A stretch of 64,000 bases of DNA from an uncultured delta proteobacterium (lineage in GTDB: Bacteria; Myxococcota_A; Polyangia; Polyangiales; Polyangiaceae). This document shows, one piece after another, positions 11,803 through 64,000 of this stretch. The stretch lies in contig CAVSWE010000003.1 of the NCBI GenBank assembly GCA_963731595.1, forward strand, positions 236,948-300,947, given 5' to 3'. The notes beneath the pieces are model-generated. The model ran no database searches. It had not been told where the DNA came from and worked only from the letters and a program-made list of their open reading frames with translations. Position 1 is the first letter of the stretch, and each line of letters begins with the position of its first letter. Position numbers and translations under genes: made by a program.

Positions 11803-11918
11803 GTAGCGCGACGGTCCAGTGTAAGTCGGACTGGGACCGTCAACAATCAGACCGAGCCTCGCCACGAGCCCATATTGTCACGAACGCGCAGTTGGCCCAA
11901 CCACGCCACTCGCCGTGC

Positions 11919-36814: not shown

Positions 36815-36993
36815 CACTGCAATTCTCACTGTCACGTTGATTGGTGCCTCCATGAACTACGCCCCGGCGAGCGCCTGTCAAACCCGCGCGCGGTTCGATG
36901 ATCGAGAAGGCTGGGAAAGGTCGCTCGTTCAATGGCCCTCTCGCACCGGGTGGAACCCGCGGGTCAAGCCGGCCGCAGAGGCCGCGAATTGCG

Positions 36994-38671
36994 CTAGGGG
37001 ATCATGCCAGTCAGGAAATACGCCTGCACGTAGGTTACAACGCAGATGATGAGCAGGAAGAGCAAGCTCCACTTTACCGTAAAGCGCAGCAGCTCCGATT
37101 CGCGGCCGACCAGGCCGACGGCAGCACACGCAACGGCAATCGATTGGGGCGAAATCATCTTGCCGGTAACCCCGCCAGTGCTGTTCGCCGCCACCATGAG
37201 GACATCGCTGACACCGATCTGGTGGGCCGTGATGCTTTGCAGACTGGCGAACAGCGCGTTGCTTGACGTATCGGAGCCGGTCAGGAATACGCCGAGCCAG
37301 CCAAGCACCGGCGCGAAGAACGGGAACAGCTGCCCGGTTGAGGCCAACGCCAGCGCCAGGGTCGATGAAATTCCCGAGTAGTTGGCAATGAAGGCGAAGC
37401 CTAGGACACACGCGATCGTGAATATCGGCTTGACCAGATCGATCAGCGTGTCCTTGAACACGGCCAACCCGTCGCGAATCGACATGCCCAGGACAAAGAT
37501 CGACAGGACCGCGGACAACAATATCCCGGTACCGGTGGCCGAGATCAAGATCCAGGTTGTAGATCGCCGCGTAGGGCGTGTCCTTGGCCACGACCGGCGT
37601 CGTCCTTATCACAAGCTCATGCAGGCCTGAGACCTTGTAGCTGAGCACGGTGCTGCTGAGCGTGCCGCCGGGAGCAAACATCGCCTTGAACGCCGGCAGG
37701 CTCCAGATCACCACGATTACAGTCAGGATAATAAATGGCGACCACGCCTTGATAATATGCGCCGTCGTATACCTCGAGTGGCCCGCCCCTTGCACCGGAA
37801 TAGGCACGTGTCTCGGCGCGCCTCCGCCGGTAACGGCACTAAACACAAATGCCTCACGTGGTTGCCAGAACTTGAGGAAGGCGGTGGTTGCCACCAGGCA
37901 GAGCAGCGCGGACGTGATGTCCGGCAGTTCCGGCCCGATGAAGTTGGAGGTGAAAAATTGCGTTACCGCAAACGTCCCGCCCGCCACGAGCACGGCCGGC
38001 CATGTCTCGCGCACTCCCTTTAGGCCATCCATCAGCCAGACGAGAAAGATGGGCACGAACACCGACAACAGCGGCAACTGCCGGCCGGCCATCTTGCCGA
38101 CCAGCATCGGATCAATCCCGGCCGTCTTGCCGGCGACGAGTATGGGGATGCCGAGGGCGCCAAAGGCTACCGGCGCCGTGTTGGCGATCAGGCACAGGCC
38201 GGCCGCGTAGAGTGGATTTAGTCCCAGTGCGGCAAGAATCGCAGCCGTAATCGCGACCGGCGCGCCAAAACCCGCCGAGCCTTCCAAGAAGGCGCCGAAG
38301 GCAAAACCGATGAGAATGACTTGCAGCCGTTGGTCCTTGGTAATCGACACAACCGAGGAGCGGATGATCTCGAACTGCCCGGACTTGACGGACAGCTTGT
38401 ACAAGAACACCGCATTGAGGATGATCCAGGAGATCGGCCACAGGCCGAAAGCCATGCCGTTGGCGGTGGCTCGCAGGGCGAGCCCCGCCGGCATTCCGTA
38501 GACGGTGAGCGCTATGATGACCGTCACCACGATAGTCCCCAAGCCCGCGAGATAGCCCTCCCACCGCAGGACGGCAAGCGTGACAAAGAAGAACACAATC
38601 GGCAACGCCGCGACGAGCGCGGACAACCACAGGTTGCCGAGCGGGTTATAGACCTGCGTCCAGACTTCCAT
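36994..38671 (-). CDS. lctP: L-lactate permease (LctP family), 1 frame change near 37550
   Basis: About 400 aa in one frame ([28 protein letters not shown]..) and the final ~180 aa in another (..[26 protein letters not shown]). Confidence 0.8.
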
Positions 38672-38680
38672 GTCGTCTCC

Positions 38681-41589
38681 TCAACGCGTCAATTTGGATA
38701 CCTGCGATGCCGGCAGCGGCTGCGCCCGCGCGCAGGCGTCAACCAGGGTGATGATCGAGCGATACGGAAAGCCTGCTTGCTCGGACAGGCCGATCTCGCA
38801 GGTGCGGCTCGACGAATAGCCGACCTTGCACCCCGCCGGTAGCGCCGCGTGCAGGTGCCGGAGCGCGAATTCGTTTAGCTCCGGACGGTCGAAGCCCTTT
38901 TCGCCGGCAAAGCCGCAGCAGAGCACCTCTTCCACCACCACGACCTTGCTGCTGCAGCGCGAGGCGATAGCGGCGAGCTTGTCGACTGTGCCCATCTTGC
39001 GCACGCTGCACACCGGGTGGATCGCAACCGGGGTATCGATGGGCTCGATGGCGACACGGGGCAGCACCGAATCGTGAAGGAACTCGATGCCGTCCTGCAC
39101 GGCGAGGCGTCCCGCGAGATAGCGCTGCATGCGATAGGAACAGGGGCTGGTGTCGAAGACGATTGGCCACCGCCCGTTGTCGTTGGCTTCGCGCAAGGCA
39201 AGCTCCAACTGCGCGGCCTTGCGGTCGGCCACTGCCGCCAGGCCCTTGCTTTCGAACGGCTGGCCACAGCAGAGCTCGGTAAGCCGCTGCGGATACGACA
39301 CCTCGAATCCTGCTTTGCGGAACAGGCGCTCGGCGGTTGCGGGCACGGCCTCGGTATCGTCGCCGCGTTGACCACCCATGTTCCGGCTGGCGCAGCTCGG
39401 AAAGTAGACGACGCGGTCGACGTTCGGAGACGGCGTGTGGGGGACGGACGAAAATTGATCGGCCGTGGCAGCGCCGGCGACCATTTGGGCAACGCGCCGC
39501 CCGAGAGGATGCGCAAACCTCCAAGCGAGGCCTGCATCGCCTTCGTGCCAACGAGCCCGTGCAGCATGTCGGCGGCGGCGAGGCCTGCGCGCACGCCACC
39601 GGTAGCCGCACCGTAGTGGTCGGCGACAAGTTCGGCAATGCGCTGGGTTAGCGGGCCTGCCCGTCGTCCCCGCAATGCCTTGATCAGAATCCCGGTTTCG
39701 ATACCCACCGGACACGCCGTCGCGCACAGCCCGCACGCGGCGCAGGTGTCGATGCCATGATAGTCGTACAGCGCGCGCAAACTGGAGACTTCGCTGTCGA
39801 CCCCGGCACTGCGCTTCGAGCCGCGCGATTTCGCGCCAGCCGACGATGCGCTGCCGCGGCGACAGCGTAAGCCCGTGCGAAGGGCACTTGGGCTCGCAGA
39901 AACCCACACTCGATGCAACGGTCGACGATCACATCGCAGACGGGCAGCGGTTTGAGGTTCTTTAGGTGCGCTTCGCGGTCGGCGTTGAGAATGACGCCGG
40001 GGTTGAGCAAGCCTTCCGGGTCGAACAGGCGCTTGATCTGCCACATCAGGGCATACGCTTCGGCGCCCCATTCCAATTCGACGAAGGGCGCGATATTGCG
40101 TCCCGTGCCATGCTCGGCCTTGAGCGAACCGTCATACTTCTCGACAACCAGCGGGCACAGTGCGTCCATGAAACCCCGATAGCGCTCGATCTCGGCGGCA
40201 ACGTTGAAGTCCTGCGTAAACACGAAGTGCAGGTTGCCTTCGAGCGCGTGCCCGAAAATGATGGCGTCGGGATAACCATGCGCCGCGAGCAGCCGCTGCA
40301 GATCGAGGGTTGCTTCGGCCAGGCGCTCGACGGGAAAGGCGACGTCTTCGATGATCACGGTGGTGCCCGCCTTGCGCATCGCCCCCACCGAGGGAAACAT
40401 GCCTTTGCGCACGTTCCACAAGCGTGCGCATTCTTGCGCGTCGGTGGAGAAGCGGATCGGCTCGGCGGTGTGAATCCCCGCCAGGGCGGCGTGGATTGCG
40501 CGCACCTGAGCGGCGAGCACGGTGCCGTCCGCAGCGCGGGTTTCCACCAGCAGCGCGGCCCCGCCGGGGCCCAGCTATGCGGATGCCCTGCGGCAAGCCC
40601 GGCTCTGCTTCGACCGAACGCAAGGCGGCGCGATCGGCGAGCTCGACCGCCGCAACCGGCGCGCTCTTGAGCGCAGTGACTGCCCGGCACGCGGTCTCCA
40701 GGTCGCCAAAGAGGATGAGCGCACTGGCCTTGTCGGCATATTCCGGGACCGTGCGGTAGGTGATTTCGCTGATGAACCCCAGGGTGCCCTCGGAGCCGAT
40801 CATCAGGTGCGGGAGGATATCGAGCGGATCCTCGAAGTCCACCAGCGCATTGAGGCTGTAGCCGGTGGTGTTCTTCAGGCGGAACTTGTGCCGGATGCGT
40901 GCGGCTAGGCTTTCGTTGGCGCGGACAGCCTGAGCCAGCGCGTCGAGCTCTCGCACAAGCTGCTGCTTTCGTTCCAGGAATGCCGCTCGGCTCCCCGCCT
41001 CGCGCGTATCGAGCACCGTGCCGTCGGCAAGCACCACACGCATCCCAGCGAGCGTGCGATAGCTGTTTTGTGCCGTCCCGCAGCACATCCCGCTGGCATT
41101 GTTGGCGACGATGCCGCCGATCTTTGCCGTGTCGATCGACGCAGGGTCTGGCCCGATCTTGCGGCCGAAGCTCGAAAGTCGACGGTTTGCCGCCGCACCA
41201 ATCACTCCGGGTTGCAGGGTGACTGTCCCGCCATCTTCGCCAATCTCGCAGCGCCGCCAATTGTCGCCGAGCAGCACGAGCACCGAGTCGGTGATCGCCT
41301 GCCCCGAAAGGCTGGTTCCGGCGGCTCGGAACGTTACCGGCGCGCCCAATCGTGCGCAGGCCGCCAGCAGGCGTATCACTTCTTCTTCGCTTTCGACCAC
41401 AGCCGCGATCGCGGGGACCAGACGATAGAAGCTCGCATCCGTCCCCCAGGTCAGCAAGCGCAAGGGATCGGTGATCAGGCGCTCCGCCGGGATAAACGCT
41501 GCCGCCTCGCGGTAAAGCTCAGCGTATGGCCGACGAAGCGCCGGCCCAGCAGGGATGCGACGAGCGGCGTGCACTTGGGTCCCGGGCAA
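38681..41589 (-). CDS. Large FAD-binding, 4Fe-4S and tandem-CCG-domain D-lactate (D-2-hydroxyacid) dehydrogenase, Dld-II/YdiJ-like (~960 aa); at least 2 frame changes
   Basis: FAD_binding_4 (..FRAAGTSLSGQAI..), FAD-oxidase C-terminal domain (..EHGTGRNIAPF..), CIECGFCEPKCPS, CAACGLCATACPVG, CCGQPFESKG, CCGFAGEKGF; read across three frames. Confidence 0.75.
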
Positions 41590-42550
41590 TAGAGACGATC
41601 AATGCCCAACGCGGGGTGTGAATGGCGGGAAGCGAACCTGCACGGTTCCCCGCCGTTCCGTCGGCGCCGCCCGTACCCGGGGGCGAGCCCGTTTGAGAGC
41701 GCCGGCGGGGGTACGCGACATCGGTGGCAGCACGGGCGCCCTGCGAACGGCAGGCGCGAGGTGGTCAATCATGATCGCGGACCTTGCAAAGCTGCATTGC
41801 GCTGGTGCCCGCGGGTCGGTCGCGGAGTTCCAAAGCAGGAGTACCCCAGTAGCCCGCTCATTCCTGTTGCTCCAGTTAGCCTGCGCACTCCGCGGATCGC
41901 ATGCCGCCCTCGGCGGTCTTCGCCGCCTTACGCGGCTCCAAGGCGCGGTCCTTGCGGTATAACGAAACGCGGCCCCTCCCGTGCGCGGCCCATCGAGACA
42001 CGGTACGGAAGGTTGCCGTAACTTACTCTGCGCTCGGCGGACGGGGTTTGATCTAAGTCATTGCCAGCGTACTAAGGGGTGCGAGGCCGAATCGCCTTTG
42101 CACTGATGGTCAGTGGCTCCGACAAGGGCAGGAGACCTGGTGCCGGTTCGACTGGCGGTTTTCCTCCCTCTGGTTGGGCGGCTTGGACACCGACGGTCCG
42201 GACATTCACACCCGGCTCGGCGGAGGCTCCAGACTCGCAGGGCGCCTCCTGGTCCCGGTGCCACAAGCAACGATCGACAGCGCCGTTCACGACCGTTGAT
42301 CCAAGTCAAACGGGCGCCGACATGGCGCGTTTACTGTATGCCAACCGTCGAAGGGCAAGTCTGACGTAACGCCCCTGCCGGTGCAAATGAGGCGTTGCCC
42401 AGCGTGCCCACGGATTTCCCGAGGCCATGAAACGAATCGATCCGCCACGGAAGCAAAGCCGGGAGGAGCGAAGCAGCGCTTGTCCCGCACGGTTGGCGTC
42501 GATCTGGCAAGCAACTGGGCCGATTGCAGCAGCGTCGCGCTTTGGTGGGC

Positions 42551-52815: not shown

Positions 52816-54426
52816 CGCCGGGCTGCTCAACGTTGTCCTGTACCTGCCGCTTGCCGGCATCGCGGCGATCATCGCGCTGCCGCCGAGGCAGGACGACCGC
52901 GTGCGTTGGACTGTCGCTCGCCGTGATGCTGCTGCAATTTGTCCTCGCCGCCTGGCTTTACACGCGCTTCGACGCCGCCACGGAAGGCCTGCAGTTCGAG
53001 ACGCGGCTGCCCTGGATCGCCGCCTGGGGCGTGTACTACCAGATCGGTCTCGACGGCTACAACGTGCTGCTGGTGCTGCTGACCGCATTCCTCGGGCCCG
53101 CTGGTCGTTGCCGGCGCATTCAGCGCCATCCAGAAGGACGTGAAGCTTTTCTACGCGATGGTCTTCGCTCTGCAGTTCGCGATGCTGGGCACGTTCCTCG
53201 CCCAGGACCTGTTCCTGTTCTACCTGTTCTGGGAGACGATGCTCATCCCGCTGTTTTTCATCATCGGCATCTGGGGCGGGGAGCGTCGCATCTACGCGAC
53301 GCTCAAGTTCGTGCTCTACACCGCCTTCGGCAGCATCCTGATGCTCGCCGCGGTGATCTATCTCGTCTATTCGCTCAATGCGACGACCGGCGTGACGTCC
53401 TTCGCCTTTGCCGATCTCTATCGATCCGAGCTTCCCCTGTCTGTCCAGACGTTGCTGCTCACCGCGTTCGCGCTGTCGTTCGCGATCAAGGTGCCCATCG
53501 TGCCGCTGCATACATGGCTGCCAGACGCGCACGTCGAGGCGCCGACCGCGGGCTCGGTGATCCTGGCCGGCGTTCTGCTGAAGATGGGGACCTACGGCTT
53601 CATGAAGCTTGCCTTTCCCCTGTTCCCCGACGCCACACGCCTGCTTGCGCCGGTATTCCAGACCCTCGCGGTCATCAGCATCCTCTACGGCGCCTGTCTC
53701 GCGCTGGTGCAGACCGACATCAAGAAGATCATCGCCTACTCGTCGATCAGTCATCTGGGCTACGTCATGCTGGGCCTCGTCAGCCTTGATCTGCTTGGCA
53801 TCCAAGGTGCGGTGGTACAGATGGTGAGCCACGGGCTGATCGCCGGCGGGCTCTTCCTCATGGTCGGCATGATCTACGAGCGCTGCCACACGCGTGAACT
53901 CGCCGCGTACGGTGGGCTGGCGAAGCTCCTGCCCCTGTACTCGGTTTTCTTCGCCCTGCTGACGCTCTCGGCGATCGGTCTGCCGACAACTTGCGGATTC
54001 ACCGGCGAGTTCCTGGTGCTCCTTGGCGCGTTCCGGGCGGCGTGGCCGCAGTACGTGCAGGGCGCGGGCTACCCGCTGCTGCTGAGCGCGAGCGCCGTCG
54101 CCGGCGTCGCACTCGGCGCGCTCTACATGCTGGGGTTTGCCCAGCGTTTCCTGTTCGGGGGCGCGAAGGCGCCGCATCAGCCGCTCCACGACCTCAACCT
54201 GCGGGAATACGCGATCCTCGGGGCAATTGTCGTGGCGGTCTTCGCACTGGGCCTTTTTCCGGACGAGCCGATGCGCAAGACCGAGCTCGCCGCAAGGCAG
54301 TACCAGCAGCTCGTCGCGGGGAGTCGAAGCGGCACCCGGATGGCGGCCCGCCTGGCGGCACACCCTGTCCCGCGTGACACGCGGCCACCCTCGCTCACCT
54401 CGGGCAACACCGGCAACGGACGATGA
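52808..54426 (+). CDS. nuoM: NADH-quinone oxidoreductase subunit M, 1-2 frame changes at the N-terminus
   Basis: [17 protein letters not shown]..; [21 protein letters not shown]; [30 protein letters not shown]. Confidence 0.85.
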
Positions 54427-55809
54427 ACTGGCAAGACGCACTCATGGCGATGCTCCCCGAGCACTTGTTGCTCGCCGGGATCGTGCTCCTGCTCGCGTTC
54501 GATAGCGCGGCGCGCCCGTCGCGGGACAGGCTTGCTGTGGCGTTGTGCGCCGTCGGCGGCGCGAGCGTCGCAGCGCTTCTGCAGGGCTTCACCGGCTTTG
54601 CCGCCGCGCCGTTTCCGGGGCAATACTCTGTGGGAGCGATCCCGTTGCTGGGGAAGGCCATCGTGCTGGTGCTCGCCGTTCCCGTGTTGCTGATCGCGCG
54701 CGACGAGTCTGGCGAGCGCGCATTTCCCGTGCTGTTCCTATCCTCCCTCTATGGCGCCTGCCTGCTGCTCTCGGCGGACAGTTTCCTTACCCTCTTGCTC
54801 GGGCTCGAGCTGCTGTCGCTGCCGGTGTATGCGCTGGTGCTGCTCGCCTTCCGGCGCCCGGAGAGCGCCGAGGGGGCCCTAAAGTACCTGGTGCTCGGCG
54901 GCACCGCGACGGCGACCTTGTTGATGGGCGTCGCCATGCTCTATGGCGGTAGCGGTTCGCTGGCGCTCTCCACGTTCACTCGGGCGCTGGACTCACACGA
55001 CACCATGGCCAATGTCGCGGTGGTGCTGGTCCTGGTGGCCTTCTTCCTCAAGGCAGCCATCGTCCCGTTCCACGCCTGGGCCCCGGACGCCTACGAAGGT
55101 GCCACGGTGCCGGTAACCGCGTACATGGCCACGATCGTCAAGGCTGCTGTGCTCCTCGCTGTCGTGCGCCTGTTTGGGACTGCCCCGGTGATCGCGGCCG
55201 CTGGCCGACCTGCTCGCGGTCCTGCCTCTGCTCTCGATTGTCTGGGGCAATCTGACAGCCATGCGACAGCAAAGCTTCCGCCGCATGATGGCCTACTCTT
55301 CCATTGCTCACGCCGGCTATCTCTTCTACGCGCTCTTGGGCGAGGGACCGGGCCGATTCCAGGCGGTCAGCTTCTACGTGCTCGCCTATGGGCTGATGAA
55401 CGTACTTGCCTTCGCCGCGCTGCCGCCCGACGCAAACGATGTGACGCGCGACCGCCTGGACAACCTTAGGGGCCTGTTCCAGCGCCAGCCTTTCGCCGCG
55501 CTGATGATCGCTATCGCCATGCTCTCGCTGGCCGGTATCCCGCCCTTCCCCGGATTCATCGCCAAGTTCCTCATCTTCAAGAACGTGATGGCGGCTGGGT
55601 ACACGCTGTATGCGGTCCTGGGCTTGATCGGCAGCTACCTCGGGATCTACTTCTATCTGCGCGTCATCCAATACCTGTTCATGAGCGCGGAGGCACCCGC
55701 GCCAGCGCGCCGCGCGCTTGGACGACTGGAAGTCGGTGCGAGCTTCATCTGCTTGCTGGCTGCGCTGCTGCTATCGGTGTTTCCGGGTTGGGTAATCGAT
55801 CAGTTGTAA
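54423..55809 (+). CDS. nuoN: NADH-quinone oxidoreductase subunit N, 1 frame change near 55200
   Basis: [23 protein letters not shown]..; PFHAWAPDAYEGA | ..MMAYSSIAHAGYLF..FPGWVIDQL. Confidence 0.85.
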
Positions 55810-57777
55810 GCGCGTCGGCAACGAGCTCGGCAATGTCGCGGGTGGCGATATCCGCTTCCCGGCCGAGCGCCTTCGCGCCGTCGAGCATCATGGTCGCGCA
55901 ATAAGGACAGGCCGTCGCGATCACGCTCGGCCGCTGCGGTAGCGCCTGCTCGACGCGGACGACGTTGATGCGACGGCCAATTCTCTCATCCATCCACATG
56001 CGCGCGCCGCCAGCGCCGCAGCACATCGACTTTTCTCGCCGCAGATCGAACTCAAGCGGCGCATCGCGCGTCAGCCGCGCGAGGATGGCGCGCGGCGCCT
56101 CGTACTCGCCGTTGTGCCGTGCGAGGTAACATGGCTCGTGGTAGATCACGCGCTCAAAGGCTGGGGCGACGCGGATGCGGCCGGCCGCCATCAGCCGTGC
56201 GATGAGCTGCGTGTGGTGCACCACTTCGTAGTCCCCGCCGAATTCAGGGTATTCATTCTTGAGTGTATTGAAGGCGTGCGGATCGCAGGTCACGATGCGC
56301 GTAACCCCCAATCCGTTCAAGGTCTCGACCAGGGCGCGGGCGAGCTGCTGGAAGAGCATCTCGTTACCCGCGCGGCGCACGCATTCCCCGGTCGAGGTCT
56401 CGCGCTGGCCGAGGATGCCGAAGCGGACCCCGGCATGGTCGAGAATTTTTGCGAACGCGATGGCGATGCGCTGCGCCCGCGGATCGAACGATTCGGCCGA
56501 GCCGACATAGAATAGATAGTCGAGGGCCTGCACATCCTCGGCCGTCTGCACGACGGGGATCCCGAGCCCGTTGGCCCAGTCGCCGCGCGTATCGGCTGGC
56601 AGTCCCCAGGGATTGCTCTGCACTTCGTAGGCGTCGAATACCGCCTTGAGCTCGTGCGGGAACGCGCCTTCCATCAGGACCTGGTGCTGGCGCATGCGAT
56701 AGAAGCGCGGCAGATGCTCTAGTTCAATCGGGCAGGCGGCCTCGCAGTAGCCGCAGGTCGTGCACGCCCAAAGCGTCTCCGGCGCGATCACTTCGCCCAC
56801 CAGAGCCGGCAGCGCCGTATCGTCACCGACGACAATTGCCTTGCGCTGCGCAAGCAGGTGACCCTTGAGGTTGTCGTAGACCCACTTCAGGGCGAGCGGC
56901 TTGCCGGTCAGGAAGGTCGGGCACGCGTCCTTGCAGCGCCCGCATTCGGTGCAGGTAAACGCATCGAGCCCGTCTTTCCAGCTCAGATCCCCCGCGGTGC
57001 GCACGCCGATCTTCATGTTGCTGGCGTCGTCTGCGCCCATGATCGCATCCAAGTCGAGCGTCGGCACGCGGTTGGCCGGCCCGCCGCGCCGGAAGAACAG
57101 TGCGGGCAGTGCGGTGACGATGTGGAAATGCTCGCCGACGGGCAGGATCACCAGGAAGGCGAGCACCGTCCCCATTTGCAGCCAATACAACCCCTCGTAT
57201 CCGGCGACGAGCCGGCCTGTGGTGCAGGCCCGATAGCATCCGAGCGACCGCGTCACCCGCGAAGGCAAACGCCCGCTCGTGCGCAATGTGCGCATCCGTC
57301 GATGCCAGCAGCGCAAAGCGGAAGCCATCGAACAGGAAATCGGTGACCATGATCGCCGCAATCAGCGACAGGATCAGCAATGCCTCGCGATTGCGCTCAA
57401 GCCGAGCGGGTTTCTGTACCAAGCGGCGCCAGAACGCATAACCGACCGCAGCGAGCACGGCGAGCTCGATCGCGTCTTTGAAGGTAGCAAACAGGCCTCC
57501 AGCGAGCCCCGGATAGACGAATGTCTCGTCGTAGCCGATCACGAGCAGCTGCACTTTGCGCACCAGCAGCGTCGTGAAACCGATGAAAATGACCGCGTGC
57601 ATCAGGCCCGGCTTCCATTCCCGCCTGACCATGCGCGACTGCAGGAAGCCGTTGACCGAGAACAGCCTGCAAGCGCGCCAGCGGCCGGTCCCAGCGCACT
57701 TCCGGCGCGAGCTTCACGACGATGGCGAGTTTGCGCCAGGCGAGCGCACAGAACCCCGCCAGCGCGACAGCGAGCAA
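55745..57777 (-). CDS. Membrane-anchored Fe-S oxidoreductase of the HdrD/GlpC/EtfD type (N-terminal TM domain, 2x[4Fe-4S], two CCG domains), frame changes
   Basis: TM-rich N-terminus (..HAVIFIGFTTLLV.., ..ILSLIAAIMVTDF..); CTECGRCKDACPT; CTTCGYCEAACPIE; CCGAGGARMW; ACPYCATMM; 3' end overlaps nuoN convergently, so the true stop is uncertain. Confidence 0.6.
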
Positions 57778-57934
57778 CAGCGTGATTGCGAAGCGGGTTC
57801 ACACCAGCGGTTGGCGCGATGGCAAGACCGTCAGCGGCGGGAAACGTGCGGCGGCCCAGCTGCACCGCTTCAGACAATGGGTGCCACGCTGCCTGACTGG
57901 GTGCCTAAGCCTGTCGTTTCGACTTGGGCGTGGG

Positions 57935-58411
57935 TCACGCCCCTGCCCGTGCCGCAATTGGCGAATACGCATCCATGAGTTGCAGGCGCGTCGCCTGCAG
58001 CCGCTCGGCCACGACGCCCAGCAGCCGTTGCATCAAGGTAAAGCCGAACAGCGTATCCTCCCGGCAGGCCGCCAGGAGCTCCGAGCCTTCGAACGCCAGC
58101 GCATCCACGCGCTCCAGCGTTCGTGCCTGCAAGTGCTTGCCACGGCCCAGCAACAACGCAGACCAGCCAAGTTCGTCGCCCGCGAACAACGTCTGCACGC
58201 GAAACGTGTGCCCCGGCGCGGCGATTTCGAGCGCTACCAGCCCGGTAATGATGAGGTAGAACTCCGAGCACTCGTCGCCCACATGGAACAGAATCTGATC
58301 CCGTTCGAAGCGTATCTCCTTGGCCAGCGTCGCGAGCTTTTCGACCTGCCAGGGCTCGAATTCCGCCACGAACGGATGGTGGCGGAGCATTGCCAGAATC
58401 GTCTCCCTCAT
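57935..58411 (-). CDS. Stand-alone cyclic-nucleotide-binding domain protein (second copy in the window)
   Basis: ..FERDQILFHVGDECSEFYLIITGLVALEI..GDELGWSALL.. Confidence 0.6.
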   Translation of the reverse strand: MRETILAMLRHHPFVAEFEPWQVEKLATLAKEIRFERDQILFHVGDECSEFYLIITGLVALEIAAPGHTFRVQTLFAGDELGWSALLLGRGKHLQARTLERVDALAFEGSELLAACREDTLFGFTLMQRLLGVVAERLQATRLQLMDAYSPIAARAGA

Positions 58412-58471
58412 CGTGTCTCACCTTGCGTGCACATTTTCCGGTCCGGGTTGCGCGGCCATTGGTGCCGGCTT

Positions 58472-60144
<1,673 letters not shown>

Positions 60145-60210
60145 GGCTCGTTCCTCCGGATCTCGCTCGCTTTGCCGGCCGTTGGCGTTGCCTGGGGAGC
60201 ATGCCGGTTG

Positions 60211-61840
60211 TCAATTGGTCTCGGGAACCATTTTGATCGCGCCACATGGACATTCGGAGACACATATCCCGCAGCCCTTGCAATAGTCGAAATTGAACTC
60301 GAATCGCTTGCCTGGTCCGAGTTTGATTACCGCGTTGTCCGGGACAGACCCCGTAACAGTTGTCGCACTCAAAACAATTGCCACAGGAGAGGCAGCGGCG
60401 CGCTTCAAATAACGCATTGTCTTCGTTGAGACCGCCCACGACCTCCTCAAAAGTGGAGGTGCGGCGGGCGAGCTCGAGCAATGGACGCATGGTCTTGGGC
60501 GCATCGCTGTAATACCAGGGGTTCAGCTTGTCGAAAGTAGCCAGCTCATGCTTGGCGGCCGGTTCGTAACTGCGACTGGAGAGCCAGGCGTTGATATGGC
60601 GTGCCGCCTTCTTGCCGTGACCGACCCCGACGGTGACCGTGCGTTCCGACGGGACCATGTCGCCACCGGCGAAAATTCCCGCGTAGCCGGTCATCATGTT
60701 GCGTCCGACTTGAACGGTGCCGTCTTTGATGGCGAGCCCTGGGACGCCATCGAGCAGCGAGAGATCCACGTCCTGCCCCAGCGCCAGCACCAGCGAGTCG
60801 GCCTCAAGGGTCTCGAATTCTCCGGTCGGCTGGGGGAAGCCGGTAGCGTCGAGCGCCATCTTTTCGACCGTCAACGTGCCCTCATCGGCCATGTTCTTGA
60901 TGGTCGACAGCCACTTGATCAACACGCCTTCCTGCAGCGCCTCTTCGATTTCAAAGTCGTGCGCGGGCATCTTCTCGCGGGTGCGCCGGTAGACGATGAT
61001 CGCTTCGGTCGCACCCAGCCGCTTGGCCGTACGCGCAACGTCGAGCGCGGTGTTGCCGCCGCCATACACCACGACGCGCCGGCCCAGCATTGGCTTTTCC
61101 TCACCCTCCATGCTGCGCAGCACCGATACGGCATCGAGCATGTGCGCGGCTTCGCCTGCCGGAATGTAGGCGCGCTTGGCGATATGCGCGCCCACGGCGA
61201 GGAACGCCGCGTCGAAGTGGCCGGCGTTCATCGTGTCGACGATGTTCGTGACCTTCGAGTTCAGTTGCAATTCGACACCCATGTCGAGGATGCGCTGCAC
61301 CTCGCCATCGAGCACGTCGCGCGGCAATCGGTACTTGGGAATCCCGAAGCGCATCATCCCGCCGGCAAGCGGGCCCGCCTCGACGATCTTGACGCCGTGA
61401 CCGAAGCGCCGCAGGTGATAGGCCGCGGACAATCCTGATGGTCCGGCGCCGACAATTAGCACGCGCTTGCCGCTCTCGGCTTTGGGCGGAGCGAACTTCC
61501 AGCCGCGCTTGAGGGCTTCGTCCCCGAGAAAGCGCTCGACCGAGTTGATGCCGACCGGCTCATCGAGCTGGCCGCGGTTGCACGAGCTCTCGCACGGGTG
61601 GTAGCAGACGCGACCCATGATTGCCGGTACCGGATTGTCCTCCGTCAGTACTCGCCACGCCGCTTCGTAGTCGCCGGACTCGGCGCGATAGAGCCAGCCC
61701 TGAATGTTTTCGCCGGCCGGGCACGCGTGGTTGCACGGGGGCAAGCGATCGACATACAGGGGCCGGTTGGTGCGCCACGCGCCCGTCTTGTTGGCAAGGC
61801 TCGAGCCTACATCGAGGGTGATTGCGTATGGCTTATCCAT
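60211..61840 (-). CDS. korC: KorC-like NAD(P)H-binding subunit (glutamate-synthase-small-subunit/GltD-like flavoprotein with N- and C-terminal Fe-S/ferredoxin modules) of a 2-oxoacid:acceptor oxidoreductase; 1 frame change near 60340
   Basis: [14 protein letters not shown]; [18 protein letters not shown]; [15 protein letters not shown]; [18 protein letters not shown], then in a shifted frame [21 protein letters not shown]. Confidence 0.7.
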
Positions 61841-61849
61841 GGACGATCC

Positions 61850-62881
61850 CTATGGCAGCAAGCCGAACTCGGCGATATTCCGATCGGCCATCTTCTGGAT
61901 CCGCGCGATGCGCTCGAGGTCAGGTTCCTTGCCGAACAGATGCGCGTAGCGTTTCTGCAGCTTGAGGTATTCGGTCACCGGAACCTTGTGCCGAATCGGG
62001 GTACTGGCCGTGACTGCGCCGTCCTGCGCCTCGAACAGCGGAAACAGGCCGGTCTCGACTGCCAGGCGCGCTAACTTGATCGTGTCCTCCGGCGCCGAGC
62101 CCCAACCGAGGGGACATGGCACGAAAATGTGAATGTAGCGTGCGCCGTGCATTCCCATCGCGTAACGCACCTTGCGCTCGAGGTCGCGCAGATTGGAAAC
62201 ACTCGCAGTCGCAACATAGGGAATGCCGTGCGCCATCGCGATGCGCGGCACGTTCTTGCCAGTGCCGAAGACGTTGCCAGGAGCGCGTCCCATCGCCGGG
62301 GTCGTGGCCGTACGCGCCGCCGGGGGCGTCGCGCTCGAGCGCTGCACGCCCGTGTTCATGTACGCCTCGTTGTCATAACAGATATAGAGCACGTCGTCGT
62401 TGCGTTCGAACATACCGGATAGACAGCCGAAACCAATGTCCGTCGTGCCGCCGTCGCCCCCCTGCGCGATCACGCGCACGTCGGTGCGGCCCAGCGCCCG
62501 CTGCGCCGCCGCGACGCCCGACGCAACCGCGGCCGCATTGCCGAACAACGAGTGGATCCAGGGAATCTGCCACGAAGTCTCGGGATACGGCGTGGAAAAT
62601 ACTTCCAGGCATCCCGTTGCGTTGACCGCGATCAGCTGCTTGCCCGTCGCCTCCATCGCTGCATCAATGGCATACCGCGCGCCCAGCGCTTCACCGCAGC
62701 CCTGGCAGGCGCGATGCCCCGAATTCAGGGAGTTCGTCCGATGCATGTCGGCCTGCACCGAGCGCGTGTCGTCCGCAAGAAGACGATTGCCGACGGTAAA
62801 GGTCCCGGTCTGATAGAACTTGATCTGCTGCTCTTGCTTTTGCACGACACTTCTCCTCGGTTCAGCCGATGCGCGACGCAA
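61850..62881 (-). CDS. korB: 2-oxoacid:ferredoxin/acceptor oxidoreductase beta subunit (TPP-binding, PorB/KorB type)
   Basis: ..NSLNSGHRACQGCGE..VIAQGGDGGTTDIGF..ICYDNEAYMNTG.. Confidence 0.8.
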   Translation of the reverse strand: MRRASAEPRRSVVQKQEQQIKFYQTGTFTVGNRLLADDTRSVQADMHRTNSLNSGHRACQGCGEALGARYAIDAAMEATGKQLIAVNATGCLEVFSTPYPETSWQIPWIHSLFGNAAAVASGVAAAQRALGRTDVRVIAQGGDGGTTDIGFGCLSGMFERNDDVLYICYDNEAYMNTGVQRSSATPPAARTATTPAMGRAPGNVFGTGKNVPRIAMAHGIPYVATASVSNLRDLERKVRYAMGMHGARYIHIFVPCPLGWGSAPEDTIKLARLAVETGLFPLFEAQDGAVTASTPIRHKVPVTEYLKLQKRYAHLFGKEPDLERIARIQKMADRNIAEFGLLP

Positions 62882-64000
62882 CCGTGCCGATCCGGCGCAG
62901 GATCGCTTCGGCAGTGGGCCCGGAGCGGCGAGCCATGCTTTCGCGTTCCAGTTCGTGGCTCACCACGTCCGCGTTCAGGTCCAGAAAGGTAACCTGCTCC
63001 AGTTCGTCACGCTCGGCATCTTCGAATAATCGCCTCAGTGACGCCCGCGTGATCGCGCGCCCGCCAAGGCCGGCGATGACCGTGTAGCCGTTGAGTGCGA
63101 TGCCGGACAAGGACTTGCGCACCCCGTCGGAAACAATGCCGCCCAGGCCCACGGCCAGACATTTTTCCAGCACCACCACGCGCTTTGCATGCTGTAGCGC
63201 GTCGCGCAGAACGCCGAGCGGAAATGGACGGAAGGAACAAATGGAAACCGAACCGATCCGTGAACCGTCGGCACGCATTGCATCGACGACTTCCTGCACC
63301 GTGCCGTTGAGCGAACCGAGCGCGACCACGATCGTCTCGGCGTCTTCGGTGCGGTAGGGGCGGATAAGCCCGCCGGAGTCGCGGCCGAATTGTTTCTGGA
63401 ATGCAGTGGCCAGCTCCGGAATCAATCCCAGCGCGCGCAGCTGCTTGTGATGCGACAGGTAGCGCACTTCGGTGAATGCTTCTGGCCCGACCATCGCGCC
63501 GATGCTCACCGGATCGGCCGGGTCAAGCATTTGCCGCGGCTCGTAGCGCGGCAGGAACGCGTCGACCTCCTGCTGCGTCGGCACGTCGACGCGGTCGTAG
63601 GCATGGGTGAGGATGAAGCCGTCCATGCACACCATCACCGGGCAGGACAGCACTTCGGCGAGGCGGAAGGCCTGAATGTGCAGATCGAGCGCTTCCTGGT
63701 TGGTTTCCGCGTAGAGCTGGATCCAGCCGGCGTCGCGCATCGACATGCTATCGGAGTGATCATTCCAGATATTGATCGGTGCCCCGATCGCCCGGTTGCC
63801 GATGGTCATGACGATCGGCAGCCCGAGCCCGGCGGCGTTGTACACGGCCTCGGCCATGAACAGCAAGCCTTGGCTGCTGGTTGCCGTATAGGTGCGCACG
63901 CCCGCCGCCGAAGCGCCGATGGCTACCGACAGCGCGGCGAATTCCGATTCGACGTTGATAAACTCACAGCCGGCGAGCTCTTCGGTCTTGACCATCTCGC
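62862..64000 (-). CDS. korA: 2-oxoacid:ferredoxin/acceptor oxidoreductase alpha subunit (PorA/KorA), 5' part outside the window
   Basis: ..GASAAGVRTYTATSSQGLLFMAEAVYNAAGLGLPIVMTIGNRAIGAPINIWNDHSD..; ORF runs off the window end. Confidence 0.8.
   Translation of the reverse strand, partial: EMVKTEELAGCEFINVESEFAALSVAIGASAAGVRTYTATSSQGLLFMAEAVYNAAGLGLPIVMTIGNRAIGAPINIWNDHSDSMSMRDAGWIQLYAETNQEALDLHIQAFRLAEVLSCPVMVCMDGFILTHAYDRVDVPTQQEVDAFLPRYEPRQMLDPADPVSIGAMVGPEAFTEVRYLSHHKQLRALGLIPELATAFQKQFGRDSGGLIRPYRTEDAETIVVALGSLNGTVQEVVDAMRADGSRIGSVSICSFRPFPLGVLRDALQHAKRVVVLEKCLAVGLGGIVSDGVRKSLSGIALNGYTVIAGLGGRAITRASLRRLFEDAERDELEQVTFLDLNADVVSHELERESMARRSGPTAEAILRRIGTVASRIG

What the first reader, a model, noticed from the sequence alone, without database searches (positions are those of the whole stretch)
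60211..64000. korC-korB-korA: KorABC-type 2-oxoglutarate oxidoreductase (as described for Azoarcus) with a GltD-like NAD(P)H subunit carrying ferredoxin modules at both ends
The order alpha, beta, then a glutamate-synthase-small-subunit-like flavoprotein matches the three-subunit NADP+-dependent 2-oxoglutarate oxidoreductase described for Azoarcus evansii, where it regenerates reductant for anaerobic aromatic ring reduction. Here KorC additionally carries an N-terminal CxxCP motif and a C-terminal 2x[4Fe-4S] delta-subunit-like module ([18 protein letters not shown] ... [15 protein letters not shown]), so the usual separate PorD/KorD is fused in. A malic enzyme lies directly downstream. This is a useful taxonomic and metabolic hint (Rhodocyclales-like anaerobic metabolism).
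Basis: partly seen in the sequence, partly recalled or inferred. Interest (0 to 1): 0.5.

Follow-up and report, generated by a model that had tools for sequence, protein, structure and literature searches.

The report
NADP-linked pyruvate-type oxoacid oxidoreductase operon
The genes are real, but they look like a widespread, biochemically untested enzyme that probably oxidises pyruvate (not 2-oxoglutarate) and passes the electrons straight to NADP+ through a built-in flavoprotein, so it resembles the Azoarcus enzyme in how it works without being related to it.

Summary
On the minus strand lie an alpha gene (cut by the window end), a beta gene, a 542-aa GltD/NfnB-like flavoprotein gene broken by one extra base, and then a malic enzyme gene.

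The KorABC / 2-oxoglutarate / Azoarcus label does not hold.
- Alpha, beta and the delta part all score best against pyruvate-type (Por) models. Alpha is 48% and beta 53% identical to a solved four-subunit pyruvate:ferredoxin oxidoreductase (9bt4). They score about 5- to 9-fold lower against 2-oxoglutarate models.
- The Azoarcus-type cluster, seen in Aromatoleum EbN1 plasmid 2, has a 65-kDa flavoprotein, a 68-kDa fused KorA and a 37.5-kDa KorB. Its flavoprotein is only 30% identical to ours, and its KorB gives no BLASTP match to our beta.
- In all 66 of 80 related loci that hold enough upstream DNA, a separate gamma gene precedes alpha. The cassette is therefore gamma-alpha-beta-flavoprotein.

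The "KorC" protein is a PorD delta subunit split by an inserted, circularly permuted NfnB-like FAD/NADPH module. Its cysteines fit four [4Fe-4S] clusters.

The cassette occurs in at least 593 species genomes. The closest relatives are Casimicrobiaceae, not Rhodocyclales.

Most likely function: pyruvate + CoA + NADP+ gives acetyl-CoA + CO2 + NADPH. This is an uncharacterised variant of a known kind.

The parts
62862..64000 (-). porA-like alpha subunit gene. It is partial: about 39 N-terminal codons, including the YPITP motif, lie beyond the window end. Stop codon TGA at 62864-62862.
   Evidence: Pfam POR_N 193 bits + PFOR_II 74 bits. NCBIfam PorA_Arch 392.7 bits against 2-oxoglutarate synthase alpha 73. 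PDB 9bt4_B E=9e-96. The full-length homologue in L001 is 48% identical to 9bt4_B, with the substrate loop NRAIGAPINIWNDH. The frame is open at the window edge. The window gene covers residues 40-416 of the L005 alpha.
61850..62845 (-). porB-like beta subunit gene, 331 aa from GTG 62845. It binds TPP and has the Cys set for one [4Fe-4S] cluster.
   Evidence: GAGGAG lies 7 nt before the GTG, and alpha stops 17 nt upstream. Pfam TPP_enzyme_C. NCBIfam PorB 353.7 bits against KorB-type 40. It is 53% identical to 9bt4_C, and the motifs GHRACQGCGE, NATGCLEV, GDGGTTDIG, DNEAYMNTGVQ and PCPLGW are kept.
60211..61840 (-). It encodes a PorD delta subunit interrupted by a circularly permuted NfnB/GltD-like FAD/NADPH module.
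   Evidence: NCBIfam NF009410 (PRK12771) 769.8 bits, above its cut-off of 516, over the full length. Homologues are 542 aa and 87-94% identical.
61748..61828 (-). PorD N-terminal arm (residues 5-31, ...[19 protein letters not shown]...).
   Evidence: On its own it hits PorD_Arch profile positions 5-30/85, E=5e-5. It aligns to GSTLANKTGGWRNFRPVYI of the solved delta subunit 9bt4_G.
61502..61741 (-). GltD/NfnB-type Fe-S domain lacking its first segment (residues 34-113). Cys 36, 40, 79, 83 and 87.
   Evidence: Pfam Fer4_20 matches only profile positions 30-112/113. The five Cys are invariant in 18 homologues down to 36% identity.
60575..61465 (-). FAD and NAD(P)H domains (residues 126-422). They contain GAGPSG and GGGNTALD...IVYRRT.
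   Evidence: Pfam Pyr_redox_2 104.5 bits. The region aligns with NfnB/NfnI-L including the GGGNTAMD...YRRT stretch.
60383..60484 (-). Displaced first segment of the GltD Fe-S domain (residues 453-486, ...[23 protein letters not shown]).
   Evidence: It aligns to the N-termini of NfnB chains 4ylf_B and 5jca_L (weak on its own). Moving residues 440-486 in front of residue 32 raises Fer4_20 from 65.2 to 97.0 bits and profile coverage from 30-112 to 2-112. TIGR01316 rises from 253 to 278.5 bits.
60214..60382 (-). PorD ferredoxin core (residues 487-542), two CxxCxxCxxxCP motifs. It spans the frameshift.
   Evidence: TIGR02179 and PorD_Arch hits. It aligns to 9bt4_G through residue 83 of 85.
60339..60343 (-). 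Frameshift site: one extra base in the run CCCGG.
   Evidence: The sequence is. tblastn shows a switch from frame -1 to frame -2 at 60341/60351. All five homologues aligned read CPDNAV across the site.
58472..60144 (-). Malic enzyme gene (intact homologue 557 aa), 66 nt downstream on the same strand. It is broken by four frameshifts in the window.
   Evidence: Pfam malic + Malic_M. tblastn with the intact L005 protein shows the frame changes. No terminator-like or promoter-like site lies in the gap. The same neighbour is present in the Casimicrobiaceae-like loci L005, L006, L007, L010 and L066.

Best explanation
This is the 3' three-quarters of a four-gene cassette: porG-like gamma (just outside the window), porA-like alpha, porB-like beta, and a flavoprotein. 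It encodes a self-contained 2-oxoacid:NAD(P)+ oxidoreductase of the Por (pyruvate) clade.

Proposed mechanism:
1. Alpha/beta bind TPP and decarboxylate the 2-oxoacid, most likely pyruvate, to acyl-CoA + CO2.
2. The two electrons leave one at a time through the beta [4Fe-4S] cluster.
3. They pass through the two clusters of the delta (PorD) ferredoxin core.
4. They pass through the two clusters of the NfnB/GltD-type Fe-S domain.
5. They reach FAD, which reduces NADP+ by hydride transfer.

Delta and the flavoprotein are one polypeptide. PorD's N-terminal arm and its ferredoxin core flank an inserted, circularly permuted NfnB-like module. The NADP+ reductase is therefore docked on the enzyme where delta normally sits, and no free ferredoxin is needed.

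With the co-directional malic enzyme, the locus would convert malate to pyruvate and then to acetyl-CoA. It is probably used when oxygen is scarce.

Shown: gene content, domain architecture, family placement, conservation of the cassette.
Inferred: complex formation, the electron path, NADPH rather than NADH, pyruvate as substrate, low-oxygen regulation.

The single frameshift is most likely an assembly error.
For: Por-type placement:
- NCBIfam alpha: PorA_Arch 452 bits (full-length L001 homologue), above Vor 291, Pad 266, oxalate 249 and 2-oxoglutarate synthase alpha 93.
- Beta: PorB 354, above Vor 294, oxalate 242 and KorB-type 40.
- Gamma: Por gamma 201.
- Delta: PorD 85, above Vor 54 and OorD 23.
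- PDB: 9bt4 alpha/beta/delta at E=8e-111, 2e-91 and 1e-21, against 56 bits for 2-oxoglutarate synthase 8ys5.
- Pocket and loop residues match the solved pyruvate enzyme: YPITPQT, NRA(I/V)(G/S)APINIWNDH, TGCLEV, DNEAYMNTG(V/I)Q.

Flavoprotein architecture:
- Splicing residues 1-33 to 481-542 gives a full-length PorD (profile positions 6-85/85; aligned to 9bt4_G residues 4-83/85).
- The in-silico permutation restores a full Fer4_20 domain and the C-x2-C-x4-C-x3-CP spacing.
- The 16 Cys are 7 for the NfnB-type clusters, 8 for the delta clusters and 1 spare. The 15 used are invariant in 18 homologues.
- The GGGNTA...YRRT stretch is shared with NADPH-binding NfnB.

Conservation:
- At least 593 species genomes carry a relative.
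- All 66 of the best 80 loci with enough upstream DNA show gamma-alpha-beta-flavoprotein, tightly packed, with no separate porD.

Context:
- Malic enzyme lies downstream with no terminator-like site between.
- The closest annotated flavoprotein paralogues (57% identity) sit beside nifJ, a single-chain pyruvate:ferredoxin oxidoreductase.
- Noviherbaspirillum locus L050 carries a KorAB pair next to the cassette, so the two are not redundant.
- An FNR-type box lies within 300 nt upstream of gamma in 16 of 66 loci, including most of the Casimicrobiaceae-like ones. About 0.6 would be expected by chance.

Frameshift as error: there are six frameshifts in about 8 kb here, while the closest relative L005 has all these genes intact.
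Against: - No biochemical data exist for any member of this cassette in the literature I could search.
- All Por equivalog scores are below NCBI's curated cut-offs (PorA_Arch 452 < 550, PorB 354 < 405, Por gamma 201 < 225). The proteins are therefore a sister group of characterised Por enzymes, not proven members.
- Por, Vor, Pad and oxalate enzymes share this clade, so other small or branched 2-oxoacids are possible substrates.
- A succinate dehydrogenase / fumarate reductase operon lies upstream in close relatives. That would also suit a TCA-cycle (2-oxoglutarate) role.
- Gamma and the promoter are not in the window. Their presence here is inferred from relatives.
- NADPH preference rests on motif similarity only.
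- If the frameshift is real, the delta core would be lost and the enzyme would be dead in this organism.
Confidence: 0.6

Rival explanations
1. One reading: a KorABC-type 2-oxoglutarate:NADP+ oxidoreductase like that of Azoarcus evansii, supplying reductant for anaerobic aromatic ring reduction.
For: The overall logic is the same: an OFOR plus a GltD-like flavoprotein with Fe-S clusters. An sdh/frd operon lies upstream in relatives. Rhodocyclaceae also carry the cassette.
Against: - Alpha, beta, gamma and delta score about 4- to 9-fold higher on Por than on Kor/2-oxoglutarate models.
- The Aromatoleum EbN1 three-gene cluster matches the published 62/63/37 kDa subunits (calculated 65.0/67.8/37.5 kDa). 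It uses an OAFO-type fused KorA and a KorB. Those share only 33% identity over about 120-150 residues (alpha) and no BLASTP hit (beta) with the window proteins. The flavoproteins are 30% identical, and the gene order differs.
- The EbN1 flavoprotein shows no TGxWR arm motif in its N-terminal sequence and no PorD hit at E<=1e-10.
- No aromatic-degradation genes were found among the window ORFs scanned.
- The nearest genomes are Casimicrobiaceae.
Confidence: 0.12
2. An NAD(P)+-linked oxidoreductase for another 2-oxoacid of the Por/Vor/Pad clade, or one of broad specificity (2-oxoisovalerate, 2-oxobutyrate, an arylglyoxylate).
For: All Por equivalog scores are below their curated cut-offs, and the Vor, Pad and oxalate models also score well. 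The NAD+-dependent phenylglyoxylate enzyme of Azoarcus (Pad) is a Por-clade enzyme with an added flavoprotein. That last point is from my own knowledge and the NCBIfam model names.
Against: Por ranks first for all four subunits. The pocket loops are identical to those of the solved pyruvate enzyme. The context points to pyruvate: malic enzyme here, and nifJ beside the closest paralogues.
Confidence: 0.17
3. The complex does more than a linear transfer. The NfnB-like FAD could bifurcate or confurcate electrons between NADP(H), the Fe-S chain and a second partner, or it could drive pyruvate synthesis from acetyl-CoA + CO2.
For: The inserted module is homologous to NfnB, whose FAD is the bifurcating flavin (the mechanism is from the literature, PMC9973337).
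Against: The cassette holds no NfnA-like or other second-acceptor gene, and no neighbour is conserved across taxa. The thermodynamics favour simple pyruvate oxidation to NADP+. The related Azoarcus enzyme simply reduces NADP+ (from my own memory of the abstract).
Confidence: 0.06
4. The locus is a decaying pseudogene cluster: the frameshifts in the flavoprotein and malic enzyme genes are real.
For: There is one frameshift in the flavoprotein gene and four in the malic enzyme gene.
Against: Frameshifts are spread over unrelated genes across the window, including nuoN and the HdrD-like gene. Away from the indels, amino-acid identity to intact relatives stays at 90-94%, with no premature stops within frames. 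The related long contig L001 shows similar fragmentation of the malic enzyme and nuo genes. The korC indel sits in a short homopolymer run.
Confidence: 0.05

Closest known systems
Three-subunit 2-oxoglutarate:NADP+ oxidoreductase of Azoarcus evansii (Ebenau-Jehle, Boll & Fuchs 2003). Its likely gene set is seen in Aromatoleum aromaticum EbN1 plasmid 2: flavoprotein-KorA-KorB.
   Same: Both are TPP/Fe-S 2-oxoacid oxidoreductases hard-wired to a GltD/NfnB-like FAD flavoprotein that reduces NADP+. Both flavoproteins have Fer4_20 + Pyr_redox_2 + a C-terminal dicluster, and both have the RCxxC segment displaced to the C-terminal side.
   Different: - The catalytic subunits belong to a different OFOR clade: OAFO-type KorA with gamma fused (622 aa) and KorB, against separate Por-type gamma, alpha and beta here.
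- The flavoproteins are only 30% identical.
- The EbN1 protein is below the PRK12771 cut-off (389 < 516). It shows no TGxWR arm motif and no PorD hit at E<=1e-10.
- The gene order is flavoprotein-first there and last here.
- The substrate there is 2-oxoglutarate.
Four-subunit (PorABCD/PorABDG) pyruvate:ferredoxin oxidoreductase, solved as PDB 9bt4. From memory, this is the Methanosarcina acetivorans enzyme.
   Same: Alpha is 48% identical, beta 53%. The delta arm and core are alignable end to end. The TPP, cluster and substrate-loop motifs are the same, and gamma is a separate small subunit.
   Different: Here delta is not a free 85-aa protein. It carries a module of about 450 aa with FAD, NADPH and two [4Fe-4S] clusters inserted between its arm and its core. 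The predicted acceptor is therefore NADP+, not ferredoxin. The scores are below NCBI's Por equivalog cut-offs.
NfnB / GltD / dihydropyrimidine dehydrogenase N-terminal half, and the permuted NfnB-like modules of StnC-type proteins (PDB 8oh5, 9bov).
   Same: The FAD and NADPH domains, the two-cluster Fe-S domain and the GGGNTA...YRRT stretch are shared. The order of segments is the same as in 8oh5_C and 9bov_A, which align contiguously over residues 31-530.
   Different: Relative to canonical NfnB/GltD, the first 30-45 residues of the Fe-S domain are moved behind the flavin domains. There is no NfnA or GltB partner. Here the module is embedded in PorD.
Pyruvate:NADP+ oxidoreductase (PNO) of Euglena and Cryptosporidium.
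   Same: The predicted overall reaction is the same: pyruvate + CoA + NADP+ gives acetyl-CoA + CO2 + NADPH, by fusing an NADP+ reductase to a pyruvate:ferredoxin oxidoreductase (from my own knowledge).
   Different: PNO is a single-chain NifJ-type enzyme fused to a cytochrome-P450-reductase-like FMN/FAD domain. Here the enzyme is a four-subunit Por type with an NfnB-like FAD/Fe-S module. It is a convergent solution.
NAD+-dependent phenylglyoxylate oxidoreductase PadEFGHI of Azoarcus evansii.
   Same: It has Por-clade alpha, beta, gamma and delta plus an added flavoprotein that reduces a pyridine nucleotide. The window proteins hit the PadG, PadI, PadE and PadF models at 41-266 bits.
   Different: All Pad scores are far below their cut-offs (for example PadG 266 < 700). 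In Pad, delta (PadF) is a separate small subunit, and the substrate and nucleotide differ (this last point is from my own knowledge).

Membership tests
Azoarcus-type three-subunit KGOR (KorA-KorB + flavoprotein) | Large subunit is an OAFO-type KorA with the gamma domain fused to alpha (about 620 aa; TIGR03710). | tested here: not met
   Window alpha scores 84 bits and the L001 alpha 111 bits on TIGR03710 (cut-off 482.75), against 576 for EbN1 KorA. Gamma is a separate gene in all 66 loci with enough upstream DNA.
Azoarcus-type three-subunit KGOR (KorA-KorB + flavoprotein) | Beta subunit is of the KorB / 2-oxoacid:ferredoxin type. | tested here: not met
   There is no BLASTP hit between EbN1 KorB and the window beta at E<1e-3. 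KorB-type models score 40-62 bits, against PorB 354.
Azoarcus-type three-subunit KGOR (KorA-KorB + flavoprotein) | GltD-like FAD/NADPH subunit with Fe-S clusters encoded in the same operon. | tested here: met
   The domain set is the same, but identity to the EbN1 protein is only 30%.
Azoarcus-type three-subunit KGOR (KorA-KorB + flavoprotein) | Specific for 2-oxoglutarate; reduces NADP+. | not testable with these tools
   Sequence evidence points to a Por-type pocket. An enzyme assay is needed.
Four-subunit Por-type pyruvate:ferredoxin oxidoreductase | Alpha with POR_N + PFOR_II, the YPITP motif and the substrate Arg loop. | tested here: met
   YPITP is seen in the L001 and L005 homologues only, because that part of the gene is off-window. 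PorA_Arch scores 452, below the equivalog cut-off of 550.
Four-subunit Por-type pyruvate:ferredoxin oxidoreductase | Beta with the TPP/Mg motif and four Cys for the proximal [4Fe-4S] cluster. | tested here: met
   It aligns to 9bt4_C at 53% identity with all motifs kept. PorB scores 354, below the cut-off of 405.
Four-subunit Por-type pyruvate:ferredoxin oxidoreductase | Separate gamma subunit (POR domain). | tested here: inconclusive
   It is not in the window. It is present directly upstream of alpha in L001, L005 and every other locus with enough upstream DNA. TIGR02175 scores 187.8, above its cut-off of 81.1.
Four-subunit Por-type pyruvate:ferredoxin oxidoreductase | Delta subunit: N-terminal arm plus a 2x[4Fe-4S] ferredoxin core, as a free small protein. 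| tested here: not met
   The arm and core are both present and alignable to 9bt4_G. However, they are separated by the inserted flavoprotein module of about 450 aa, and the cassette holds no free porD.
Four-subunit Por-type pyruvate:ferredoxin oxidoreductase | Ferredoxin (or flavodoxin) as the physiological acceptor. | not testable with these tools
   The architecture predicts NADP+ as the acceptor instead. An assay is needed.
NCBIfam NF009410 / PRK12771 'NAD(P)-binding protein' | Full-length match above the curated cut-off. | tested here: met
   769.8 bits, above 516. Residues 10-540 match profile positions 24-565/566.
Canonical NfnB / GltD small-subunit family | N-terminal Fer4_20 domain with a contiguous C-x2-C-x4-C-x3-CP motif, followed by the FAD/NADPH domains. 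| tested here: not met
   Only Fer4_20 positions 30-112 match in the native order. The full domain (2-112; 97 against 65 bits) appears only after residues 440-486 are moved to the front.
Euglena-type PNO | Single-chain NifJ-type enzyme fused to a CPR-like FMN/FAD reductase. | tested here: not met
   The enzyme here is multi-subunit Por-type, and no flavodoxin or FNR-type domains were found.

The most novel reading that the evidence does not exclude
The cassette encodes a so far uncharacterised bacterial pyruvate:NADP+ oxidoreductase. Its delta subunit has been split by insertion of a circularly permuted NfnB-like module, giving a five-cluster wire from TPP to FAD.

The cassette is spread by horizontal transfer through at least 593 species of mostly aerobic or facultative Proteobacteria and Actinobacteria, including Accumulibacter, Gallionella and Bradyrhizobium. 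In part of them it sits behind an FNR-type box.

If so, genes routinely scored as 'PFOR, makes reduced ferredoxin' in metabolic reconstructions actually make NADPH directly. That would change redox budgets, for example in models of reducing power for polymer storage under anoxia. A bolder version is that the NfnB-derived flavin bifurcates electrons.
Probability: 0.5. Interest if true: 0.6.

Novelty: new variant of a known kind. Interest (0 to 1): 0.42.

Why it matters
Automatic annotation calls these four genes porG, porA, porB and either 'porD' or 'NAD(P)-binding protein'. Readers then count them as an ordinary ferredoxin-dependent pyruvate oxidoreductase. Alternatively, as here, they are taken for the Azoarcus 2-oxoglutarate enzyme.

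If the flavoprotein is the built-in acceptor, pyruvate oxidation in these organisms yields NADPH and no low-potential ferredoxin. That matters for several things:
- redox balancing in wastewater polyphosphate accumulators, iron oxidisers and soil bacteria under low oxygen;
- lists of bacterial NADPH sources (a 2015 review of such systems that I searched, PMC4518329, returned no mention of a 2-oxoacid:NADP+ enzyme);
- enzyme engineers who want a ferredoxin-free link between 2-oxoacids and NADP(H).

The split-delta / permuted-NfnB design is also a clean example of how electron-transfer modules are recombined.

For this window specifically, the result is a corrected annotation and a corrected taxonomic hint: Casimicrobiaceae-like, not Rhodocyclales.

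Tried and rejected
- **Primary papers not available.** The Azoarcus KGOR paper (PMC225024 / its DOI), the bzd-cluster paper (PMC516837) and the MMBR review (PMC2650882) are not held. The subunit sizes and cofactors of the A. evansii enzyme are therefore from my memory of the abstract.
- **Literature searches.** None found a description of this four-gene type. One paper names 'korAB and bzdV' as the Azoarcus-type ferredoxin-regenerating system (PMC5736913).
- **Cluster look-up of ten 50%-identity representatives** gave almost no organism names.
- **Genome scan.** It was repeated with a closer 7-sequence alignment.
- **Conserved neighbours.** A crude ORF clustering over the 80 loci found none beyond the four genes, apart from lineage-specific ones. 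Context therefore says little outside the Casimicrobiaceae group.
- **Promoter/terminator scan of 57800-64000** found nothing above the shuffled expectation.
- **Structure prediction was not run.** Coordinates cannot be inspected here, so Cys-cluster geometry could not have been checked.
- **Idea rejected: gamma and alpha are one frameshifted gene.** In L001 and L005 they are separate ORFs with an 8-nt or 5-nt ATG/stop overlap, and the same is seen in Illumina-based assemblies.
- **Idea rejected: the TTG at 62881 is the beta start.** It overlaps alpha by 20 nt, whereas GTG 62845 has a ribosome-binding site.

Full report
**1. What is in the sequence**

On the minus strand of 60211-64000 there are three consecutive genes.

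- *Alpha.* It runs from the window edge to a TGA at 62864-62862. The frame is still open at base 64000. Compared with the intact homologue of the closest genome, it lacks 39 N-terminal residues. It carries Pfam POR_N and PFOR_II.
- *Beta.* It most plausibly starts at GTG 62845, 7 nt after GAGGAG and 17 nt after the alpha stop. It ends at 61850, giving 331 aa. It carries the TPP-binding domain.
- *Flavoprotein.* It starts at ATG 61840, 9 nt after the beta stop, and is read in two frames. One extra base in the run CCCGG (60343-60339) separates ...CYGVCP from DNAVIKLG.... Removing it gives 542 aa. That is the length of nearly all of the best 120 database homologues (87-94% identical), and all five homologues aligned read CPDNAV across the junction.
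- *Malic enzyme.* It follows 66 nt downstream on the same strand and is broken by four frameshifts.

The N-terminal motif is C-x3-C-P, not CxxCP. Alpha is truncated by the window. A fourth gene lies off-window (section 3).

**2. The frameshifts**

The region holds six frameshifts in about 8 kb: one in the flavoprotein gene, four in the malic enzyme gene and one in the HdrD-like gene. The nuo genes are also split. The closest genome, a Casimicrobiaceae MAG (L005, 84% nucleotide identity over 6 kb), has all these genes intact. A related long contig, L001, is fragmented in a similar way. Between the indels the proteins stay 90-94% identical to intact relatives. I read the frameshifts as assembly indels, not gene decay. 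This is an inference.

**3. The cassette has four genes and is very widespread**

The contig encoding a 91%-identical flavoprotein shows this order: a divergent sdhCAB-like operon, then gamma (POR domain, 179-192 aa), alpha (417 aa), beta (325 aa), the flavoprotein (542 aa) and malic enzyme.

A scan of one genome per species found at least 593 species with a relative. The best 80 loci are 73-94% identical at the flavoprotein. They come from:
- Casimicrobiaceae, Gallionellaceae and Rhodocyclaceae (Accumulibacter phosphatis complete genome, Dechloromonas, Propionivibrio, Sulfurisoma);
- Rubrivivax, Rhodoferax and Aquabacterium;
- Bradyrhizobium, Rhodoblastus and Rhodomicrobium;
- Lysobacterales;
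- Solirubrobacterales, Thermoleophilia and Frankiaceae.

A tblastn map shows gamma-alpha-beta-flavoprotein, tightly packed and with no separate porD, in every locus that holds enough upstream DNA. Beyond these four genes, no neighbour is conserved across taxa. The sdh/frd and malic enzyme neighbours are specific to the Casimicrobiaceae-like group. The window's nearest relatives are Casimicrobiaceae. NCBI files this family under Betaproteobacteria incertae sedis, not Rhodocyclales.

**4. Which oxidoreductase clade**

NCBIfam ranks Por first for all four parts.

| Subunit | Por model | Other models | 2-oxoglutarate / Kor-type model |
|---|---|---|---|
| Alpha (full-length L001 homologue) | PorA_Arch 452 | Vor 291, Pad 266, oxalate 249 | 93 (2-oxoglutarate synthase alpha) |
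| Beta | PorB 354 | Vor 294, oxalate 242 | 40 (KorB-type) |
| Gamma | Por gamma 201 | | |
| Delta part | PorD 85 | Vor 54 | 23 (OorD) |

All Por scores are below the curated equivalog cut-offs. The proteins are therefore a sister group, not certified Por.

Against solved structures, the best matches by far are the subunits of the four-subunit pyruvate:ferredoxin oxidoreductase 9bt4. Alpha gives E=8e-111 at 48% identity, beta gives 2e-91 at 53%, and delta gives 1e-21. The 2-oxoglutarate enzymes 8ys5 and 6n2n score 32-58 bits.

The segments that line the substrate pocket in D. africanus PFOR are Thr31 in YPITP, Arg114, Leu121/Ile123, Ile843 and Asn996 (residue roles are from my own knowledge). 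These segments are YPITPQT, NRAIGAPINIWNDH, TGCLEV and DNEAYMNTGVQ here. They are identical or nearly so in 9bt4.

**5. What the Azoarcus-type enzyme looks like**

The primary paper is not in the held library. From memory of its abstract, the enzyme has subunits of 63, 62 and 37 kDa. The 62-kDa subunit carries FAD, Fe-S clusters and the NADPH site.

A tblastn of the flavoprotein against plasmids found a three-gene cluster in Aromatoleum aromaticum EbN1 plasmid 2:
- a flavoprotein of 595 aa (65.0 kDa) with Fer4_20 + Pyr_redox_2 + a C-terminal dicluster;
- a KorA of 622 aa (67.8 kDa), of TIGR03710 / OAFO type with the gamma domain fused;
- a KorB of 351 aa (37.5 kDa).

These sizes fit the published subunits. 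The window cassette (59.0, 44.8, about 36 and 20.4 kDa) does not.

The EbN1 flavoprotein is 30% identical to ours. Its alpha matches ours only over about 120-150 residues at 33%, and the betas give no BLASTP hit. The EbN1 protein shows no TGxWR arm motif, gives no PorD hit at E<=1e-10 and falls below the PRK12771 cut-off. A paper in the library names 'korAB and bzdV' as the Azoarcus-type ferredoxin-regenerating system (PMC5736913).

The two systems therefore work alike but were assembled independently from different oxidoreductase clades. In a Noviherbaspirillum MAG both lie side by side (L050). This argues that they are not redundant.

**6. Anatomy of the flavoprotein**

- *Split delta.* Splicing residues 1-33 to 481-542 produces a sequence that matches PorD end to end. 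PorD_Arch covers profile positions 6-85/85 at 85.3 bits. TIGR02179 scores 78.4, above its cut-off of 60.05. The spliced sequence aligns to the solved delta subunit 9bt4_G over residues 4-83 of 85, including [19 protein letters not shown] against GSTLANKTGGWRNFRPVYI. The N-terminal 35 residues alone still hit PorD (E=5e-5).
- *Permuted module.* The roughly 450 residues in between are an NfnB/GltD-like module whose segments are in permuted order. In the native order, Pfam Fer4_20 matches only profile positions 30-112 (65 bits). Placing residues 440-486 in front of residue 32 gives positions 2-112 (97 bits). It also extends the match to the N-termini of the canonical gltA/gltD models (TIGR01316 rises from 253 to 278.5 bits; TIGR01318 from 198 to 230). 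It recreates the canonical C-x2-C-x4-C-x3-CP spacing. The same segment order is present in the solved StnC-type proteins, which align contiguously over residues 31-530.
- *Cysteine count.* The 16 cysteines divide as follows. Seven (36, 40, 79, 83, 87, 483, 486) serve the two NfnB-type clusters; from my own knowledge, one NfnB cluster has a non-Cys ligand. Eight (489, 492, 495, 499, 520, 523, 526, 530) serve the two delta clusters. Cys532 is spare. The 15 used are invariant in 18 homologues down to 36% identity.
- *Nucleotide site.* The stretch [28 protein letters not shown] aligns with the same stretch of NADPH-binding NfnB. The NADPH preference is inferred from this.

**7. How it most likely works**

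Alpha/beta with TPP decarboxylate pyruvate in the presence of CoA. Electrons move through the beta cluster, then the two delta clusters, then the two NfnB-type clusters, and reach FAD. FAD reduces NADP+.

Because the flavoprotein contains delta's docking arm and core, it should occupy delta's place in the complex. No free ferredoxin would be needed.

With malic enzyme apparently co-transcribed (no terminator-like site in the 66-nt gap), the locus would take malate to acetyl-CoA.

An FNR-type box (TTGAY-N4-RTCAA) lies within 300 nt upstream of gamma in 16 of 66 loci, including most of the Casimicrobiaceae-like ones. About 0.6 would be expected from its frequency in the same DNA. This suggests low-oxygen induction. 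The window's own promoter is off-window.

Further support for pyruvate comes from the closest annotated flavoprotein paralogues (57% identity). In Phenylobacterium and Methylovirgula plasmids they sit next to nifJ.

Against certainty:
- There is no biochemistry for any member.
- The Por scores are below their cut-offs.
- The clade also holds Vor, Pad and oxalate enzymes.
- The neighbouring sdh/frd operon would also suit a TCA-cycle role.

**8. Novelty and verdict**

NADP+-linked 2-oxoacid oxidoreductases are known: the Azoarcus KGOR and the eukaryotic PNO. The flavoprotein family has a curated NCBI model (PRK12771). This window therefore holds an ordinary member of a large annotated family.

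I could not find any experimental or structural description of the Por-type four-gene version with a split delta and a permuted NfnB module (ten literature searches). A search of a review of bacterial NADPH sources returned no mention of such an enzyme.

I rate it a new variant of a known kind, of moderate interest.

Noticed in passing
window 54423-60144 and elsewhere: The window is rich in single-base indels. The malic enzyme gene has four frameshifts, the HdrD-like membrane Fe-S protein (57632-55748) has one, and nuoN is split (54423-55469 / 55261-55809). The intact versions exist in the Casimicrobiaceae MAG L005. This looks like an error-prone long-read assembly.
   Followed up: partly
window 23536-23549 and 42296-42309: There are two perfect FNR/Crp-type boxes (TTGAY-N4-RTCAA), where 0.15 would be expected by chance. 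One lies about 70 nt upstream of the first ORF of the nuo (complex I) region, and the other about 300 nt upstream of an unannotated ORF (23838-24350) that precedes the Crp/Fnr-family regulator gene at 24487-25272.
   Followed up: no
loci L005-L084, 300 nt upstream of the gamma gene: An FNR-type box is present in 16 of 66 loci, against about 0.6 expected. It sits at -60 to -170 in most of the Casimicrobiaceae-like loci. This points to low-oxygen control of the cassette in part of its carriers.
   Followed up: partly
L050 (Noviherbaspirillum MAG) 2187-9617: An EbN1-type korA/korB pair (67% and 75% identical to the Aromatoleum proteins) lies directly upstream of the Por-type gamma-alpha-beta-flavoprotein cassette. 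Both kinds of 2-oxoacid oxidoreductase sit in one locus.
   Followed up: no
L002 (Phenylobacterium zucineum plasmid) 6887-15930; L003 (Methylovirgula plasmid) 7932-14258: A 57%-identical flavoprotein lies directly upstream of nifJ and a dihydroorotate-dehydrogenase-like gene. In Phenylobacterium an alcohol dehydrogenase gene precedes it and a type II GAPDH gene follows. It keeps the PorD arm, although NifJ has its own ferredoxin domain.
   Followed up: partly
L067, L070-L073, L075, L079-L084: The whole cassette is 73-77% identical (flavoprotein) in Solirubrobacterales, Thermoleophilia and Frankiaceae MAGs. That is as close as in many Proteobacteria and suggests transfer between phyla.
   Followed up: no
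window 34698-41589 (minus strand): A lactate-utilisation cluster: a LUD/Fe-S protein, an L-lactate permease, a CCG-domain protein and an FAD_binding_4 dehydrogenase. It is another route to pyruvate, about 20 kb from the oxidoreductase.
   Followed up: no
window 1289-6198: A fragment of a non-ribosomal peptide synthetase (condensation + adenylation domains, 3190-1289) lies about 2 kb from an IS110-family transposase gene (5353-6198).
   Followed up: no
window 55745-58411 (minus strand): Downstream of the malic enzyme gene lie a 158-aa protein with a cyclic-nucleotide-binding domain only, then a membrane-anchored HdrD-like Fe-S/CCG protein (628 aa when intact). The nuo operon on the opposite strand ends next to it. 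The same order is seen in L001 and L005.
   Followed up: no
L004 (Aromatoleum aromaticum EbN1 plasmid 2) 105-9594: The Azoarcus-type flavoprotein-korA-korB cluster sits behind two acyl-CoA dehydrogenase genes, a CBS-domain gene and a ketosteroid-dehydrogenase-like flavoprotein gene, on a conjugative plasmid.
   Followed up: no
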